DNA of 64,000 bases from Escherichia coli. Lineage in GTDB: Bacteria; Pseudomonadota; Gammaproteobacteria; Enterobacterales; Enterobacteriaceae. The position numbers and the translations under genes are program-made. Location of the stretch: the NCBI RefSeq assembly GCF_044324875.1, contig NZ_CP172185.1; one strand, 5' to 3'. Under the pieces are notes generated by a model. That model saw nothing but the letters and a program-made list of their open reading frames with translations. It was not told where the DNA came from and made no database searches. Of this stretch, positions 19,160 through 23,330 are shown piece by piece; the stretch's first letter is position 1; the number at the start of each line of letters is the position of its first letter.

Positions 19160-19690
19160 GTGCAGTTTATGAAACATTCATTTGAAGTAAAACTTGCCGC
19201 TGTAAATCACTACCTGGCTGGTCATGCAGGCATCATTTCTACGGCAAAACTCTTTCAACTTTCTCACACCAGCCTCTCACACTGGATTAATCTTTTTCTT
19301 CTTCACGGTCCTCGGGCACTGGATTGCAGACACAAGCGTAGCTATTCTCCTGAAGATAAACTTTGCGTGGTTCTTTATGCTCTCGGGCATTCTGAGTCTC
19401 TACCCCGGGTAGCTGCCCGGTTTAACATTCCCAGCCACAACACGGTTAAAAACTGGATAAAAGGCTACCGCAAATCTGGTAATGAGGCCTTTATCAGGCG
19501 CTGGAAGGAGAAAAGCATGACCCGTTCTGATGATACCCATGAAAACGAGGCAAACATGACGCCGGAAGAGATGAAGAATGAGCTGCGTTATCTTCGCGCA
19601 GAAAATGCATATCTGAAAGCCATGCAGGAGCATCTCCTGGAAAAAAAGCGCCAGGAGCTGGAGAAAAAACGAAAGTCATCCGGAGCCTGA
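19160..19690 (+). CDS. IS3-family transposase OrfA (HTH)
   Basis: 176-aa ORF with HTH and leucine-zipper-like C-terminus. Confidence 0.8.
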   Translation: MQFMKHSFEVKLAAVNHYLAGHAGIISTAKLFQLSHTSLSHWINLFLLHGPRALDCRHKRSYSPEDKLCVVLYALGHSESLPRVAARFNIPSHNTVKNWIKGYRKSGNEAFIRRWKEKSMTRSDDTHENEANMTPEEMKNELRYLRAENAYLKAMQEHLLEKKRQELEKKRKSSGA

Positions 19691-19794
19691 GGTGCGGACA
19701 CTGCCAGTCTGACCTGTTAAAGGCTGCAGGGCTGGCCAGAAGCACGCTGTACTACCAGCTGTCACTGCAGAAGGCTAAGGACAAGTATGCTGAT

Positions 19795-20576
<782 letters not shown>

Positions 20577-20786
20577 ACGCACGTTGTCAGCAAATGGCGA
20601 AAAAAGTCCCCTTGTTGAATCTTTAAAGAAAGTGTATTTACGCATCACTTTTTATTTTTGCGAGGCGTTTTTCAGATATGAAGTAACAGTTGCAGTTATT
20701 ATAAGTTCAAGTAAAACAGCCTCGTATTAATTCCAGAATAAGGGCATCTGGCTTTTTATTTAATATTCAAGAATGAAAAGTTTTTG

Positions 20787-21005: not shown

Positions 21006-21253
21006 CGCCACCCCCTCACATATATCTCTCGTCAATGCATGGTGCGAAAATTACGCCGAAAATTTAATTAATAAAAGCTGATTTTTGCATCTTGTTTTAT
21101 TTTTGCGAGACGTTTTCCAGAAATAATGCAACAGTTGCAGTTATTTCAATTAATATTAAAAAACGGTTCAGCTATCATCCGGGATGATTTACTATTCTTC
21201 ATCAGGTGCTGGCGCACCCACAGGAAAGAAACGATAAACAATAAGGATGAGTT

Positions 21254-21724
21254 ATGGATGCTGATAATATATTATATTCAGGAATGTTTATTTTTTTGAT
21301 CGGTTTTGCATGGATCTTCGGTTGCATCATCCGCATGGTGTACCCGAAAAAAGTCAGCGTCTTTACCGCTCCAGGCTTTAGCGGCGCTGTTACCCTGCCA
21401 AAAGCAGGTGACTATGCGGTGACAATTACACTCCCGCTCAAAAGCGGTATTGCGTCATATCTCCCTGGCGCGAGCTTTTATTCAGCACAGTTTACCATTA
21501 CCGCCTCTGAGAGCCAGCAAGCAATAGCACTACAACGTAAAGGAAAGTGGGGAGCTAATTCTTATAACAAGGATTTTATCGGTAATAAAAGCCATATTAT
21601 TGGGGTATTTAATTGCCCTCAAGCCACGGAGAATTACGACATAGTTTGCACTAATCCACAGATTATTCACGACACCTATAAAGTGGAAATCATAAACTAT
21701 ATCTCTCTCTCGGAAAAAGAATGA
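21254..21724 (+). CDS. Hypothetical membrane-anchored protein
   Basis: 156-aa ORF; AAGGA RBS; N-terminal hydrophobic helix then Ser/Thr/Gly-rich domain; AT-rich. Confidence 0.55.
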   Translation: MDADNILYSGMFIFLIGFAWIFGCIIRMVYPKKVSVFTAPGFSGAVTLPKAGDYAVTITLPLKSGIASYLPGASFYSAQFTITASESQQAIALQRKGKWGANSYNKDFIGNKSHIIGVFNCPQATENYDIVCTNPQIIHDTYKVEIINYISLSEKE

Positions 21725-21795
21725 TGCAAACCATCCCCGGTTGGATCCTTGTTTTTATTGCGGTGGGGTTAATTATTATTCCGCAAGTAAGTTAA
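21721..21795 (+). CDS. Possible 24-aa hydrophobic peptide overlapping the stop of the upstream gene
   Basis: ATGATG overlapping upstream TGA; MMQTIPGWILVFIAVGLIIIPQVS is a single transmembrane-like helix. Confidence 0.25.
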   Translation: MMQTIPGWILVFIAVGLIIIPQVS

Positions 21796-21832
21796 TGGCA
21801 GAGATTACTGCACTGCATCCATCGCAGACCGG

Positions 21833-22141
21833 TCAGTGCTGCCACCAACCGGTCTTTACTTGGTAGTAGTAGTAATTTTGCGGATAACAGTCCGGGAACC
21901 AGACAATTCCTTGTGGATCATCCCCCTTCATCACCCGATAGCATTGGCGTCGATCATCGGCGCGGCGACGAAGAGTAGTATAAAGCCGTTTCCACTCATG
22001 ATCGCCCGGTGTACTGTAGTTTACCCAACACTCCATTGAAGGGTGACGCCATTTACCTGTCAGTGTTGGGATCCCTGAATGATTATGCAGCTTCGCTTTA
22101 CCATTACGATCCCTATCTTTACGCGTATTAAGCGTGGACAT
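21833..22141 (-). CDS. Hypothetical basic protein (102 aa)
   Basis: ORF with AGGAG RBS 8 nt upstream of ATG; no recognisable domain. Confidence 0.5.
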   Translation of the reverse strand: MSTLNTRKDRDRNGKAKLHNHSGIPTLTGKWRHPSMECWVNYSTPGDHEWKRLYTTLRRRADDRRQCYRVMKGDDPQGIVWFPDCYPQNYYYYQVKTGWWQH

Positions 22142-22202
22142 TTTTAGTCTCCTGTTAAGAGTTCTAAAAATGTGCTTCCTTAAAATAGTTCATCATTTTC
22201 CC

Positions 22203-22415
22203 TTAATTCGCATAGCGTGCTTTTGCTCGAATTTCCGATACGCGGGGACCATTATGATAGCGTCGATGCCCACACATCCAACAAGAACAAATACAGGGAG
22301 TACGAAAGCAAATACCTGATGCTTTTTTGCTTCCATCGCCTGCAGTGCGATAACGGCAGCGGATTTTTTTTAATCGCGCCATATGATGGCGACGTTCAGC
22401 ACGATTACGGGTCAT
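22203..22415 (-). CDS. Hypothetical Arg-rich, Cys-rich small protein (70 aa)
   Basis: ORF with AGGAG RBS; CFRTPCICSCWMCGH cluster suggests metal binding; RBS lies in a hairpin arm. Confidence 0.5.
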   Translation of the reverse strand: MTRNRAERRHHMARLKKIRCRYRTAGDGSKKASGICFRTPCICSCWMCGHRRYHNGPRVSEIRAKARYAN

Positions 22416-22422
22416 AGTAAAA

Positions 22423-22528
22423 CTCCTGAGCAGGCGGCACTATGCCGCTTTCATAGGAGTTCTGAATGCTGGTGCTTTCTGTATGGCATAACCATGCCTC
22501 TAACGGTTAAGTGCCTGCAGCACATGTT
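22423..22528. repeat. Copy 1 of a ~100-bp repeat containing a 37-bp palindrome
   Basis: About 85 percent identical to 24240-24343; overlaps the last codons of the HigA-like gene. Confidence 0.6.
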
Positions 22529-22790
22529 GCGGATCATTGGCAATCGCTCGCAGCAAAGCCTTTGCAGGCCCAGTCGGTGAACGTCGCCCCTGCTCCCAGT
22601 TACGCAACGTGTCTACGCTTACGGAAATAAGTTCGGCAAATTTAGATTGTGACAACCCTGAAGCGCGGCGTATTTCTTTGATTTTCATAGCATCAACTTC
22701 AAAAGTCCGTGAAGGGTGTCGCGTTCCTTCAATAATTTCATTCATCTGGGCCATGCTGTGAGTCAACCGCTCAAAAAGTGCCTTATCCAT
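22500..22790 (-). CDS. HTH (XRE-family) antitoxin, HigA-like
   Basis: 96-aa ORF; HTH region SGLSQSKFAELISVSVDTLRNWEQG; start directly after toxin gene stop. Confidence 0.75.
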   Translation of the reverse strand: MDKALFERLTHSMAQMNEIIEGTRHPSRTFEVDAMKIKEIRRASGLSQSKFAELISVSVDTLRNWEQGRRSPTGPAKALLRAIANDPQHVLQALNR

Positions 22791-23102
22791 TTACCACCTC
22801 GTATTTAACAACCGGAGCATTGATTTTTCCTGGGGAGACAGATCATCTTTAATACCCTTACGATAAATAAGCAGTAATCTGATCTCATAATGTTTAACCT
22901 GATGAAAGTAAATAACCCTGACACCAGCACGTTTCCCCTTTCCTCCTGACACCCATCGAACCTTTCTTAACCCACCAGTTTCAGGTATTACCTCACCATA
23001 GTCAGGATTCAAGGCCAGGAAAAACTGAAAACGACTGAATTCATCGTCGGTCAGCAGTTTTTGAACATCTTCAGTAAAAATTTCCGTTTCGATGAAGAGC
23101 AT
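22791..23102 (-). CDS. RelE/HigB-superfamily toxin
   Basis: 103-aa ORF with KGKRAGVRVIY motif; toxin-first gene order typical of HigBA-type modules. Confidence 0.7.
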   Translation of the reverse strand: MLFIETEIFTEDVQKLLTDDEFSRFQFFLALNPDYGEVIPETGGLRKVRWVSGGKGKRAGVRVIYFHQVKHYEIRLLLIYRKGIKDDLSPQEKSMLRLLNTRW

Positions 23103-23330
23103 AATTATACGCCATTGGCTTAGAGTAACAATCCTTTTTGTACGTCATTGACGTACCCTTGAAACCACTAGCTTACTGATAGTGCTCCAGCAAAACCACG
23201 TCTCTGCCGGGTTTGTCTTTACATTTGCGAGGCGCTTTCCAGATTTTTCACGCCCGTGAATTTCCCTGTATCCATCCAGCAAAAACGGGTGTATAAAACT
23301 GTACATTCATACAGCAAAATGAGTTCTACT

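What the first reader, a model, noticed from the sequence alone, without database searches (positions are those of the whole stretch)
21833..22415. Two uncharacterised small basic proteins; the Cys-rich one has its RBS inside a hairpin
On the minus strand a 70-aa Arg/Cys-rich ORF and a 102-aa basic ORF follow the TA module, each with an AGGAG RBS. The 70-aa gene's RBS is the 3' arm of a hairpin followed by UUUU immediately before its ATG, so translation or read-through from the TA operon may be gated by RNA structure. Neither protein is recognisable to me.
Basis: seen in the sequence. Interest (0 to 1): 0.55.

Follow-up and report, generated by a model that had tools for sequence, protein, structure and literature searches.

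The report
Hairpin-locked small basic gene pair
Two real but uncharacterised small basic proteins of an E. coli variable island are made from start sites that are folded into conserved RNA hairpins. The first belongs to a very large family also found in T5-like phages, and a short upstream reading frame probably opens its hairpin, as in known antibiotic-sensing or stress-sensing leader peptides.

Summary
A 70-aa Arg/Cys-rich ORF (A, 22203-22415, minus strand) and a 102-aa basic ORF (B, 21833-22141) follow a RelE/ParE-NadS module, each with an AGGAG. A's AGGAG and AUG lie inside a hairpin (z = -4.3).

Both genes are under purifying selection (dN/dS 0.1-0.4). Neither has a named family or fold. 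A matches only PHROG 4499 (T5 gene T5.055) and belongs to at least 4029 protein clusters across many phyla. B's C-terminal domain occurs in about 190 representative clusters.

The hairpin does not belong to the TA operon. It accompanies A in loci without any TA, usually has no U-tract, and keeps anti-SD:SD pairing through compensatory changes. In 18 betaproteobacterial leaders, 86% of cells are paired, 11 pairs are changed on both sides, and 0 of 500 shuffles reach the observed score. No Rfam family matches.

I also found a conserved 12-codon upstream ORF (22451-22489) that ends inside the hairpin's 5' arm, a second hairpin pairing B's start codon, and a second leader copy at 24238-24335.

Best reading: a leader-peptide plus hairpin translational switch (ErmCL/ToiL-like) in front of a probable zinc-binding, nucleic-acid-binding protein. 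The protein functions remain unknown.

The parts
23104..23131 (-). Sigma-70-like promoter of the RelE/ParE-NadS operon (TTGTTA-16-TATAAT). It is the only promoter-like site found upstream of A-B on this strand, so it probably also transcribes them.
22791..23102 (-). RelE/ParE-type toxin gene (103 aa). This is context, not part of the conserved cassette.
   Evidence: phrog_5869 4e-27; RefSeq name in L002
22500..22790 (-). NadS-family HTH antitoxin-like gene (96 aa). This is context.
   Evidence: NF041265, 60.4 bits, cut-off 60
22497..22500 (-). GAGG, an SD-like sequence 7 nt upstream of the upstream-ORF ATG. It overlaps the last base of the nadS stop codon.
   Evidence: read
22451..22489 (-). 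Upstream ORF (leader peptide) MPYRKHQHSELL plus a UGA stop. It reads through the anti-AUG and anti-SD and terminates inside the 5' arm of the hairpin.
   Evidence: Same start (-74) and stop (-38) in L005, L050 and L052. pN/pS 0.34 in this frame against 0.61 and 1.12 in the other frames.
22419..22468 (-). Leader hairpin that sequesters A's SD and AUG. Elements: anti-AUG CAU 22468-22466; anti-SD arm 22463-22455; GC clamp 22448-22443 with 22439-22434 (loop UAG); SD arm 22427-22419 (AGGAG 22427-22423).
   Evidence: z = -4.26; conserved in other genomes
22203..22415 (-). Gene A: 70-aa, pI 11.1 protein. Invariant C43-S-C45-x-M-C48-G, R52 and R8/R9; the adjacent H10/H11 are usually, not always, conserved. 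PHROG 4499 / T5.055 family.
22364..22371 (-). A8 homopolymer inside gene A. This is the site of the -1 frameshift allele seen in some E. coli strains.
22128..22183 (-). Hairpin over B's initiation region. CAUUUUUAG pairs with CUAAAAAUG (which contains the start codon), and B's AGGAG sits in the loop.
   Evidence: I4; z = -4.75
21833..22141 (-). Gene B: 102-aa basic Trp/Tyr-rich protein (92 aa in most strains). Its conserved C-terminal module is W..yTT.RRR...G.DP.G..w.P..P..YYY.
24238..24335 (-). Second copy of the leader (88% identical). It has a perfect 19-bp hairpin at 24238-24278, no upstream-ORF ATG and no A gene after it. It lies between the convergent 617-aa ORF and the esterase gene.
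   Evidence: (63 bits with model R1)

Best explanation
The finding is a mobile two-gene cassette (A then B) encoding two small, very basic proteins of unknown function.

Protein A is probably a zinc-binding, nucleic-acid-binding protein. It has three invariant cysteines (CxCxxC), a usually conserved HH pair and arginine-rich helices.

The cassette is expressed through a translational lock. In the mRNA leader, an upstream stretch (CAU...AACUCC) pairs with A's AUG and Shine-Dalgarno sequence across a GC-rich clamp, so ribosomes cannot start on A by default.

A 12-codon upstream ORF with its own SD is translated through the anti-SD and stops (UGA) inside the 5' arm. A ribosome sitting or stalling there must melt the stem and free A's SD. 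A synthesis would therefore be coupled to, and could sense, translation of the leader peptide, as in ErmCL/ermC, SecM/secA or ToiL/topAI.

B's start codon is held in a second, weaker hairpin with its SD in the loop.

In this window the cassette has no promoter of its own and is probably transcribed from the neighbouring TA promoter. That neighbourhood is incidental.

Shown: both genes are real and under selection; the hairpin and its SD pairing are conserved, with covariation; it is not a conserved terminator; the upstream ORF is conserved in position.

Inferred: that occlusion lowers translation; that the upstream ORF is translated and opens the lock; that A binds zinc and nucleic acid.
For: Genes are real:
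- dN/dS is 0.10-0.21 for A and 0.17-0.42 for B, with saturated dS.
- The exact window A protein is on at least 1000 contigs.
- The A-B pair is conserved in other contexts: L005, L008, L047, L049, L050, L060, L063, L075, L080, L123.

Size of the families:
- A: 446 phage records, mostly T5-like, including T5.055; 123 loci in reference genomes across phyla; 4029 clusters.
- B: 191 representative clusters.

Hairpin:
- Window z = -4.26.
- Of 63 non-redundant leaders, the median z is -2.4 and 54% have z below -2.
- A gap-free sequence alignment of 10 betaproteobacterial leaders gives 89% of cells paired, 7 pairs changed on both sides, and covariation 0.336 against 0.162, with 0 of 500 shuffles as high; slid controls give 44-60%.
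- For 18 leaders found by model R2: 85.9% paired, 11 pairs changed on both sides, 0 of 500. G-U pairs occur on the sense strand.
- Model R1, built only from E. coli-like leaders, finds six leaders of other genera. All six end exactly at the A start codon, with no other hit at E <= 1.
- The WIN and L005 leaders are 88.6% identical, while synonymous sites of the adjacent gene differ at pS = 0.66.
- Most homologous leaders have no U-tract, the terminator scan gives no call, and there is no Rfam family.

Upstream ORF:
- Same ATG (-74) and same UGA (-38) in four diverged leaders. Clade-specific conserved upstream ORFs start at -77, -79, -82 and -85.
- pN/pS is lowest in the upstream-ORF frame in 4 of 4 clades, and codon 2 shows an AGA/CGT Arg codon swap.
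- SD-like purine runs lie upstream.

Precedent: a uORF plus an RBS-occluding structure controls topAI (PMC12121999).
Against: - No expression data of any kind were available.
- The case for the upstream ORF is moderate only. The generic presence of an ATG-started upstream ORF is not enriched over shuffles (25 observed against 20.6 expected of 34, p = 0.07). The excess of variable third positions is marginal (38/34/54, p = 0.07). RNA-structure constraints overlap the upstream ORF and could mimic coding constraint.
- In most clades the upstream ORF runs through the whole hairpin and past A's start, whereas in the window's clade it stops in the 5' arm. One single mechanism may therefore not apply.
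- Some clades lack the hairpin (Chromatiales, T5-like phages).
- The window hairpin does have a UUUU tail, so partial termination cannot be excluded.
- Zinc and nucleic-acid binding are inferred from composition only. The AlphaFold model is of modest confidence (pLDDT 75) and has no structural neighbour.
Confidence: 0.55

Rival explanations
1. The hairpin is simply the intrinsic terminator of the RelE/ParE-NadS operon, and its overlap with A's RBS is incidental.
For: It sits 37 nt after the nadS stop codon, has a GC-rich apical stem, and is followed by UUUU. The second copy sits between two convergent genes.
Against: - The consensus terminator scan does not call it.
- The four U's pair with AGAA in the predicted fold.
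- The same leader precedes A where no TA exists (L005, O157:H7, L047, L049, L008).
- Homologous leaders in other genera and in Betaproteobacteria have no U-tract, but they always keep SD pairing.
- The leader is far more conserved than synonymous sites.
Confidence: 0.1
2. The palindrome acts at the DNA level, as a recombination site or a protein-binding operator. The 98-nt direct repeats mark insertion or deletion of the esterase-TA segment.
For: Two direct copies flank the 1.8-kb esterase-TA segment. O157:H7 has one copy and lacks that segment. There are at most two copies per genome. Copy 2 is a perfect 19-bp palindrome.
Against: - The repeats are two homologous copies of the A-gene leader. 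Ordinary homologous recombination between them explains the indel.
- Across genomes the stem sequences change while complementarity is kept, with G-U pairs on the sense strand only. That fits an RNA helix, not a protein-binding site or a cruciform.
- The element is always placed so that its 3' arm is the SD, 5-9 nt before the start codon.
Confidence: 0.05
3. The leader hairpins are operators for the cassette's own products. A and/or B (basic, possibly RNA-binding) would bind their mRNA and autoregulate translation, as ribosomal proteins, T4 RegA or MS2 coat protein do. The upstream ORF would be irrelevant.
For: A carries about +16 net charge, with a Cys/His motif and arginine-rich helices. Among close relatives the leader sequence, not only its structure, is conserved. 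Both genes carry structured start regions.
Against: Apical stems and loops differ completely between clades. This argues for a structural role rather than a sequence-specific one. A homologues in T5-like phages and Chromatiales lack the hairpin. Nothing shows RNA binding. This reading is compatible with the main explanation rather than exclusive of it.
Confidence: 0.15
4. A and B are decaying remnants of a phage or mobile element with no current function, and the hairpins are leftovers.
For: Frameshift alleles of both genes exist in E. coli, O157:H7 carries an internal deletion, and the island is variable. RefSeq annotation is inconsistent, with the intact gene left unannotated in L004.
Against: - Purifying selection is strong.
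- The intact A allele is by far the commonest: at least 1000 contigs, against 1-7 for the frameshift alleles looked up (P0014, P0016, P0029).
- The pair is conserved across genera at 40-65% identity.
- Non-coding leaders are conserved above the neutral rate.
Confidence: 0.05
5. The hairpin is an RNA thermometer that frees the SD at host temperature.
For: The SD lies in a stem with internal loops in the window copy.
Against: Predicted stabilities are -22 kcal/mol in the window and -25 to -46 kcal/mol in homologues from soil and water bacteria. That is far more stable than the short, mismatch-rich stems typical of known thermometers (my own knowledge of ROSE and fourU elements; not tested here).
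Confidence: 0.05

Closest known systems
Leader-peptide translational attenuation (ErmCL-ermC, cat/cmlA leaders; ToiL-topAI in E. coli, PMC12121999)
   Same: A short upstream ORF with its own SD overlaps the 5' arm of a hairpin whose 3' arm holds the SD of the regulated gene. A ribosome positioned in the upstream ORF must open the stem. ToiL likewise controls a potentially harmful protein next to TA-like genes.
   Different: No sequence relation to any known leader peptide. No inducing signal is known. In most other clades the upstream ORF runs through the whole hairpin and overlaps the A start, which resembles plain translational coupling. Stalling and Rho involvement are untested.
SecM-secA, MifM-yidC2 and VemP-secDF2 arrest peptides (from my own knowledge)
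   Same: A ribosome halted near the end of an upstream ORF unfolds a stem that masks the downstream SD.
   Different: Those upstream ORFs are long and monitor secretion or membrane insertion. Here the upstream ORF is 12 codons in the window, and nothing points to an arrest motif.
5' locks of type I toxin mRNAs (hok, tisB, zorO, aapA1; from my own knowledge)
   Same: Stable, conserved anti-SD:SD pairing in the leader of a small gene carried on mobile or variable DNA keeps basal translation off.
   Different: A is hydrophilic and very basic, not a membrane peptide. No antisense RNA or antisense promoter was seen. Activation by processing is untested.
PHROG 4499 / phage T5 gene T5.055 (AAS77102)
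   Same: Clear homology of A: E = 8e-14 to the PHROG, and 49-51% identity over residues 4-63 to T5-like phages. The RRHH and TPCxCSCWMCG motifs are shared.
   Different: T5.055 carries an extra acidic C-terminal tail, has no B partner and shows no significantly stable leader fold (z = -0.3; only a possible short UCUCC...GGAGA stem). Its function is equally unknown.
Pfam DUF3797
   Same: One A-family member gives a weak hit (i-E 5.9e-3). From memory, that family is a short Cys-containing domain with a 'CGN' motif found in bacteria and viruses.
   Different: The window protein and 57 of 58 relatives do not match it. It is at most a remote relation, and DUF3797 has no known function.

Membership tests
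Leader-peptide translational attenuator (ErmCL/ToiL type) | The SD (and start) of the regulated gene is base-paired in a stable leader stem. | tested here: met
   window z = -4.26; conserved with covariation in homologues.
Leader-peptide translational attenuator (ErmCL/ToiL type) | A short upstream ORF with its own start and SD overlaps the 5' arm of that stem. | tested here: met
   Window upstream ORF 22489-22451 with GAGG 7 nt upstream. Same start and stop in L005, L050 and L052, and upstream ORFs in the other clades. Presence alone is not above the shuffle expectation.
Leader-peptide translational attenuator (ErmCL/ToiL type) | The upstream ORF is translated. | tested here: inconclusive
   pN/pS is lowest in the upstream-ORF frame in 4 of 4 clades, and there is an AGA/CGT Arg codon swap. 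The third-position excess has p = 0.07. No ribosome profiling data were available.
Leader-peptide translational attenuator (ErmCL/ToiL type) | Ribosome stalling in the upstream ORF, in response to a signal, raises downstream translation. | not testable with these tools
   Needs reporter assays, toeprinting or Ribo-seq.
Intrinsic (Rho-independent) terminator | GC-rich stem-loop immediately followed by a U-rich tract. | tested here: not met
   Not called by the scan, which requires at least 5 T in 8. Only UUUU is present, and it pairs in the fold. Most homologous leaders have no U-tract.
Type II toxin-antitoxin operon member | Constant co-occurrence and co-orientation with the toxin and antitoxin genes. 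| tested here: not met
   The A-B pair occurs without a TA in L005, L008, L047, L049, L050 and others.
Type I toxin | Small hydrophobic membrane peptide with a cis-encoded antisense RNA. | tested here: not met
   A has pI 11.1, is rich in Arg and has no hydrophobic stretch. There is no promoter-like site on the opposite strand at the leader.
PHROG 4499 (phage protein family of unknown function) | Significant full-length match to the family HMM. | tested here: met
   E = 8e-14, residues 3-67. tblastn finds 446 phage records.
Any Pfam-A, NCBIfam or PADLOC family (proteins A and B) | Match to a family profile. | tested here: not met
   No hit, even at E <= 10 in Pfam. None in NCBIfam or PADLOC. 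Member-wise Pfam scans give only isolated weak hits.
Any Rfam family (leader RNA) | Match to a covariance model. | tested here: not met
   No hit at E <= 1 in the window 20-25 kb, nor on the leaders in 10 homologous loci.
Zinc-binding small protein (zinc knuckle or ribbon) | Four conserved Cys/His ligands, and bound metal. | tested here: inconclusive
   C43, C45 and C48 are invariant. H10/H11 are frequent but not invariant, and C41 is often replaced. The Cys loop is modelled at pLDDT 57-65. Metal binding cannot be tested here.
Dispersed repeat family (REP/ERIC-like) | Many copies per genome. | tested here: not met
   At most 2 places per genome in 3369 E. coli genomes.

The most novel reading that the evidence does not exclude
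The leader is an undescribed, widely distributed sensory switch: a conserved leader peptide plus an SD-sequestering hairpin that reports ribosome stalling or translation stress. It would control a protein family of at least 4000 clusters (small zinc-knuckle proteins) shared by bacterial chromosomes, defence and mobile islands, and T5-like and jumbo phages. The function of that family, for example nucleic-acid binding during stress or infection, is entirely unknown.
Probability: 0.3. Interest if true: 0.7.

Novelty: new member of a known kind. Interest (0 to 1): 0.5.

Why it matters
SD-masking leaders opened by upstream-ORF translation are a known way for bacteria to sense translation stress, but only a handful are characterised. 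This one is not in Rfam. It is conserved, with covariation, from Enterobacterales to Betaproteobacteria. It guards a very large protein family that has no Pfam entry, no solved structure and no literature that I could find, yet is under strong purifying selection and is also carried by T5-like phages.

If the switch is real, it offers a compact, testable handle on when this mystery protein is made, and so on what it does. It would also add a new leader-peptide sensor in pathogenic E. coli lineages.

The work also corrects the annotation picture. The intact gene A is left unannotated in at least one RefSeq genome, and a frameshift allele is annotated as an ordinary protein in another.

Tried and rejected
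- Literature searches for T5.055, the RefSeq accessions and DUF3797 gave nothing useful.
- RNAalifold on a MAFFT alignment of enterobacterial leaders failed, because a sequence alignment is not structural there: register shifts, different loop sizes and two alternative anti-SD positions. I therefore did not make a formal pair count for the window's own clade. For that clade I relied on MFE z-scores and on covariance-model hits.
- A dispersed-repeat explanation was rejected: at most 2 copies per genome.
- An integron attC-like reading of the AAC...GTT palindrome was considered. It was not tested further.
- I looked for a remote B-like partner next to A in other phyla and found none. The pairing is restricted to some Enterobacterales.
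- A generic test for enrichment of upstream ORFs against shuffles was not significant.
Full report
**1. Where this is**

The window segment 20.5-26 kb is the variable island that many E. coli carry between fabY (yiiD) and yiiE/yiiF/fdhE. Of 5426 complete genomes, 2845 have a match and 1269 cover at least 80% of the 1.5-kb query.

Reading the minus strand, the order is:
- a 617-aa ORF with no family hit;
- an alpha/beta-hydrolase gene on the other strand;
- a RelE/ParE-type toxin gene (22791-23102);
- a NadS-family HTH gene (22500-22790);
- the two ORFs of the finding;
- a strain-specific ORF on the plus strand;
- a yiiE-like CopG gene.

**2. The observation**

Both ORFs exist as described: A at 22203-22415 (70 aa, 14 Arg, 6 Cys, pI 11.1) and B at 21833-22141 (102 aa, pI 9.6). 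Each has AGGAG 7 nt before its ATG.

A's AGGAG (22427-22423) forms the 3' arm of a hairpin.
- The anti-SD arm 22463-22455 pairs with 22427-22419.
- The GC clamp GCGGCA pairs with UGCCGC around a UAG loop.
- CAU 22468-22466 pairs with the AUG.
- MFE is -21.8 kcal/mol, z = -4.26, and none of 200 shuffles fold as well.

The terminator scan does not call the site.

**3. The genes are real**

- Between the window and diverged alleles (L005, L050, L052, L049, L075, L008), non-synonymous change is far below synonymous change. dN/dS is 0.10-0.21 for A and 0.17-0.42 for B, with dS at or near saturation.
- The exact window A protein is recorded on at least 1000 contigs. The frameshift alleles I looked up (P0014, P0016, P0029) are each on 1-7 contigs.
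- One such allele (L002) is a loss of one A in the A8 run at 22364-22371.
- RefSeq annotation is inconsistent. The intact A gene is not annotated in strain 7/2, and the frameshift product is annotated in another strain.
- O157:H7 has an internal deletion from inside A to inside B.

**4. What the proteins are**

Neither protein matches Pfam, NCBIfam or PADLOC.

*Protein A*
- It matches PHROG 4499, of unknown function (E = 8e-14).
- tblastn finds it in 446 phage records. Most are T5-like phages of Salmonella and Escherichia; some are jumbo phages of Erwinia and Klebsiella.
- In T5 the homologue is T5.055 (AAS77102). It lies in the tRNA-rich early region and carries an extra acidic tail.
- A scan of one genome per species returned 123 relatives. 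They come from Enterobacterales, Chromatiales, Massilia/Janthinobacterium, Rhodocyclales, Nitrosomonadales, Burkholderia, Comamonadaceae, Methylobacterium, Pseudomonas, and MAGs of Planctomycetia, Acidobacteriota, Verrucomicrobia and Desulfobacterales.
- A profile search gives 4029 clusters, all named 'hypothetical' and none with a Pfam domain.
- Invariant residues are C43-S-C45-x-M-C48-G and R52. R8, R9, R14, G34, W46 and E61 are nearly invariant. H10/H11 are usual.

*Protein B*
- It is a conserved protein: MS.FNTRKDR..GK..PH ... W..yTT.RRR ... G.DP.G..w.P..P..YYY, ending there.
- Full-length relatives occur only directly downstream of A in some Enterobacterales.
- Its C-terminal 50 residues define a wider family of 191 representative clusters with other basic N-termini, found without A, for example next to a phage lysozyme gene in L130.
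- The model has confident residues only at 50-80, and there is no fold match.

I infer nucleic-acid binding and zinc binding for A from its composition and motifs only.

**5. The hairpin belongs to gene A, not to the TA operon**

The same leader precedes A in loci with no TA:
- L005, at the same chromosomal site with other neighbours;
- the O157:H7 remnant;
- L008, downstream of a P4-like primase gene;
- L047 and L123, beside an SNF2 helicase gene;
- L049, beside a restriction endonuclease that binds phosphorothioated DNA.

In these leaders the stems change but stay complementary.
- The apical stem is GCGGCA/UGCCGC in the window, GGGGC/GCCCC in L047 and L049, and GCGCGGC/GCCGCGC in L008.
- The basal stem is AACUCC/GGAGUU in the window, CACUCCG/CGGAGUG in L008, and UCCUCAUA/UAUGAGGA in L055, L060, L063 and L066 (UCUUCAUAU/AUAUGAGGA in L010).

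Across 63 non-redundant leaders:
- the median MFE z-score against dinucleotide shuffles of the upstream part is -2.4;
- 54% are below -2;
- the SD is paired with upstream sequence more often than in shuffles (0.58 against 0.45, Wilcoxon p = 2e-4).

Hairpin-positive clades are Enterobacterales, Massilia/Janthinobacterium, Rhodocyclales, Nitrosomonadales and Comamonadaceae. Most of these leaders have no U-tract.

Formal pair counts:
- A gap-free MAFFT alignment of 10 betaproteobacterial leaders, which is not fitted to any structure, gives 89% of cells paired and 7 pairs changed on both sides. Covariation is 0.336 against 0.162, with 0 of 500 shuffles as high. Slid controls give 44-60%.
- A covariance model built from that alignment finds 18 leaders with E of 7e-7 or lower, all ending at the start codon. 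On them, 85.9% of cells pair, 11 pairs are changed on both sides, and 0 of 500 shuffles are as high. G-U pairs occur on the sense strand.

For the window's own clade, a model built only from E. coli-like leaders finds six leaders of other genera (Atlantibacter, Klebsiella indica, Citrobacter, Pectobacterium and two others). All six end exactly at the A start codon, and there is no other hit at E <= 1 in 104 kb. The window and L005 leaders are 88.6% identical, while synonymous sites in the adjacent gene differ at pS = 0.66. No Rfam family matches.

**6. A conserved upstream ORF**

In the window, GAGG (22500-22497) lies 7 nt before an ATG (22489-22487). That ATG opens a 12-codon ORF, MPYRKHQHSELL. 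The ORF reads through the anti-AUG and the anti-SD and stops at UGA 22453-22451, inside the 5' arm.

L005, L050 and L052 have an ATG at the same position (-74) and the same UGA (-38), although the 5' half of the ORF has diverged (MTYRKQRHSELM, MMNRKFQYSELM, MASRKQRHSELM).

Other clades have their own conserved upstream ORFs:

| Start position | Clade or loci | Feature |
|---|---|---|
| -77 to -92 | L047, L123, L075, L008, L049 | reads through the hairpin to a shared stop at +43 (L047 runs on to +97) |
| -85 | Pectobacterium, K. indica, Pantoea, Erwinia, Rouxiella | MRKI[IL][YH]SE... |
| -79 | Massilia/Janthinobacterium | MKIYRWTSYS... |
| -82 | Rhodocyclales | conserved ATG |
| -76 | Nitrosomonadales-type leaders | conserved frame |

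Evidence that the upstream ORF is coding:
- In all four clades tested, pN/pS is lowest in the upstream-ORF frame: 0.34-0.72, against 0.6-3.5 in the other frames.
- Codon 2 shows an AGA/CGT arginine swap upstream of any stem.

Caveats:
- The third-position excess is only marginal (38/34/54, p = 0.07).
- The mere presence of an ATG-started upstream ORF is not above the shuffle expectation (25 against 20.6 of 34).
- RNA-structure constraints overlap the upstream ORF.

I therefore treat the upstream ORF as probable, not proven.

A ribosome at the window's UGA would hold the anti-SD in its channel and must free A's SD. This is the architecture of leader-peptide translational attenuation. The closest E. 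coli precedent is toiL-topAI, where a uORF and an RBS-occluding structure respond to ribosome-targeting antibiotics (PMC12121999).

In Chromatiales MAGs, A has no hairpin and instead starts 5 nt after the gyrA stop, upstream of serC. That is another form of coupling to upstream translation.

**7. B's start site**

An inverted repeat (22183-22164 with 22147-22128) pairs CAUUUUUAG with CUAAAAAUG, which contains B's start codon. B's AGGAG is left in the loop (z = -4.75).

L005 and L050 keep this structure. L047, L123 and L075 have CAUUUGUAAG paired with CUUACUNAUG (N = A or U) instead. I made no formal covariation count for this hairpin.

**8. The second leader copy**

A 98-nt direct repeat (22421-22518 and 24238-24335, 88% identical) brackets the esterase-TA segment.
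- Copy 2 scores 63 bits with the leader model.
- It has a perfect 19-bp stem (-35 kcal/mol).
- It lacks the upstream-ORF ATG (AAGCCATAC).
- It is followed by the antisense 3' end of the esterase gene, and it is preceded by a remnant of a nadS 3' end.
- No E. coli genome has more than two copies, and O157:H7 has one.

The simplest reading is rearrangement by recombination between two homologous leaders in a recombination-prone island. It is not a dispersed repeat or a dedicated recombination site.

**9. Transcription**

The only promoter-like site upstream on this strand is the TA promoter (23131-23104). None lies between nadS and the leader. In this window A-B are therefore probably co-transcribed with the TA genes.

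L005, which has no TA, has a promoter-like site of its own (TTGTTA-16-GATAAT with a TG) inside a palindrome, TTATATTATCG-N7-CGATAATATAA.

**10. Verdict**

The idea of RNA-structure gating is supported and extended by the conserved lock, the probable leader peptide and the second hairpin. The link to the TA operon and the terminator reading are not supported. The proteins remain of unknown function.

By mechanism this is a new, uncatalogued member of a known class of cis-regulators, placed in front of a very large uncharacterised protein family. Interest is moderate.

Noticed in passing
window 22421-22518 and 24238-24335: A 98-nt direct repeat (two leader copies) brackets the esterase + RelE/ParE-NadS segment. 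Copy 2 has a perfect 19-bp palindrome, no upstream-ORF ATG and no A gene, and it sits next to a remnant of a nadS 3' end. O157:H7 has a single copy and lacks the bracketed segment.
   Followed up: partly
window 22364-22371 (A8) and 22323-22328 (A6): Homopolymer runs lie inside gene A. Loss of one A in the A8 run gives the 73-aa frameshift allele that RefSeq annotates as a normal protein. Other alleles look like frameshift plus restoration between the two runs. Slipped-strand (phase-like) variation is possible.
   Followed up: partly
window 20623-20716 / 21068-21161; motif at 20660, 21105, 23227, 24649: There is a 94-nt repeat (76% identical) and a 15-27-nt motif (TTTATTTTTGCGAGGCGTTTTTCAGAT, core GCGAGGCGTTTTTCA). 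The motif recurs upstream of the yiiE-like CopG gene, just upstream of the esterase gene, and inside the 617-aa ORF. It may be a shared operator or promoter module.
   Followed up: no
window 19160-20517: Two overlapping ORFs (176 aa and 240 aa) look like the orfA/orfB pair of an IS3-family insertion sequence. They sit where other E. coli have yiiF.
   Followed up: no
window 24408-26261 (minus strand): A 617-aa ORF has no hit in PHROGs, NCBIfam or PADLOC. In other E. coli it is split in two, and one half is annotated 'transposase', which looks like a misannotation.
   Followed up: no
window 21254-21724 (plus strand): A 156-aa ORF lies in a ~450-bp segment (about 21380-21827) that is present in strain 2013C-4282 (L001, annotated as a 179-aa hypothetical protein) but absent from L002 and L004. 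It has no family hit.
   Followed up: no
L074 3001-3210, L077, L087: In Chromatiales MAGs the A-family gene sits between gyrA and serC. In L074 it starts 5 nt after the gyrA stop. It has no leader hairpin. This is a conserved core-genome context and hints at a DNA-related role.
   Followed up: partly
L048 2764-3075 (T5 27263-27574): T5.055 is the A domain plus an acidic tail, and it is the last gene before a terminator in the tRNA region. An ORF starting at the TAATG overlap with the T5.056 stop reads through the T5.055 start region (read by eye).
   Followed up: partly
L005 3850-3890: A promoter-like site lies upstream of the leader inside a palindrome, TTATATTATCG-N7-CGATAATATAA. This is a likely operator, so the cassette has its own regulated promoter where no TA is present.
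   Followed up: no
L004 6111-6323: The intact gene A is not annotated in RefSeq strain 7/2, although its sequence matches the window allele.
   Followed up: yes
L130 3001-3369: A B-type C-terminal domain (...TRPRRA...G.IDPD...P..KKPHIYYW) is attached to a different basic N-terminus (MAHYKRGK...) and sits next to a phage lysozyme gene, with no A nearby. The B domain is therefore a module of its own.
   Followed up: partly
L083 3192-3413: Directly downstream of the A homologue lies another small basic Cys protein, MSLDKAIQHGKERRKPYHRSKQFDRTCRNHGSCPWCEGNRRHK.... From memory it resembles a common phage small-protein family.
   Followed up: no
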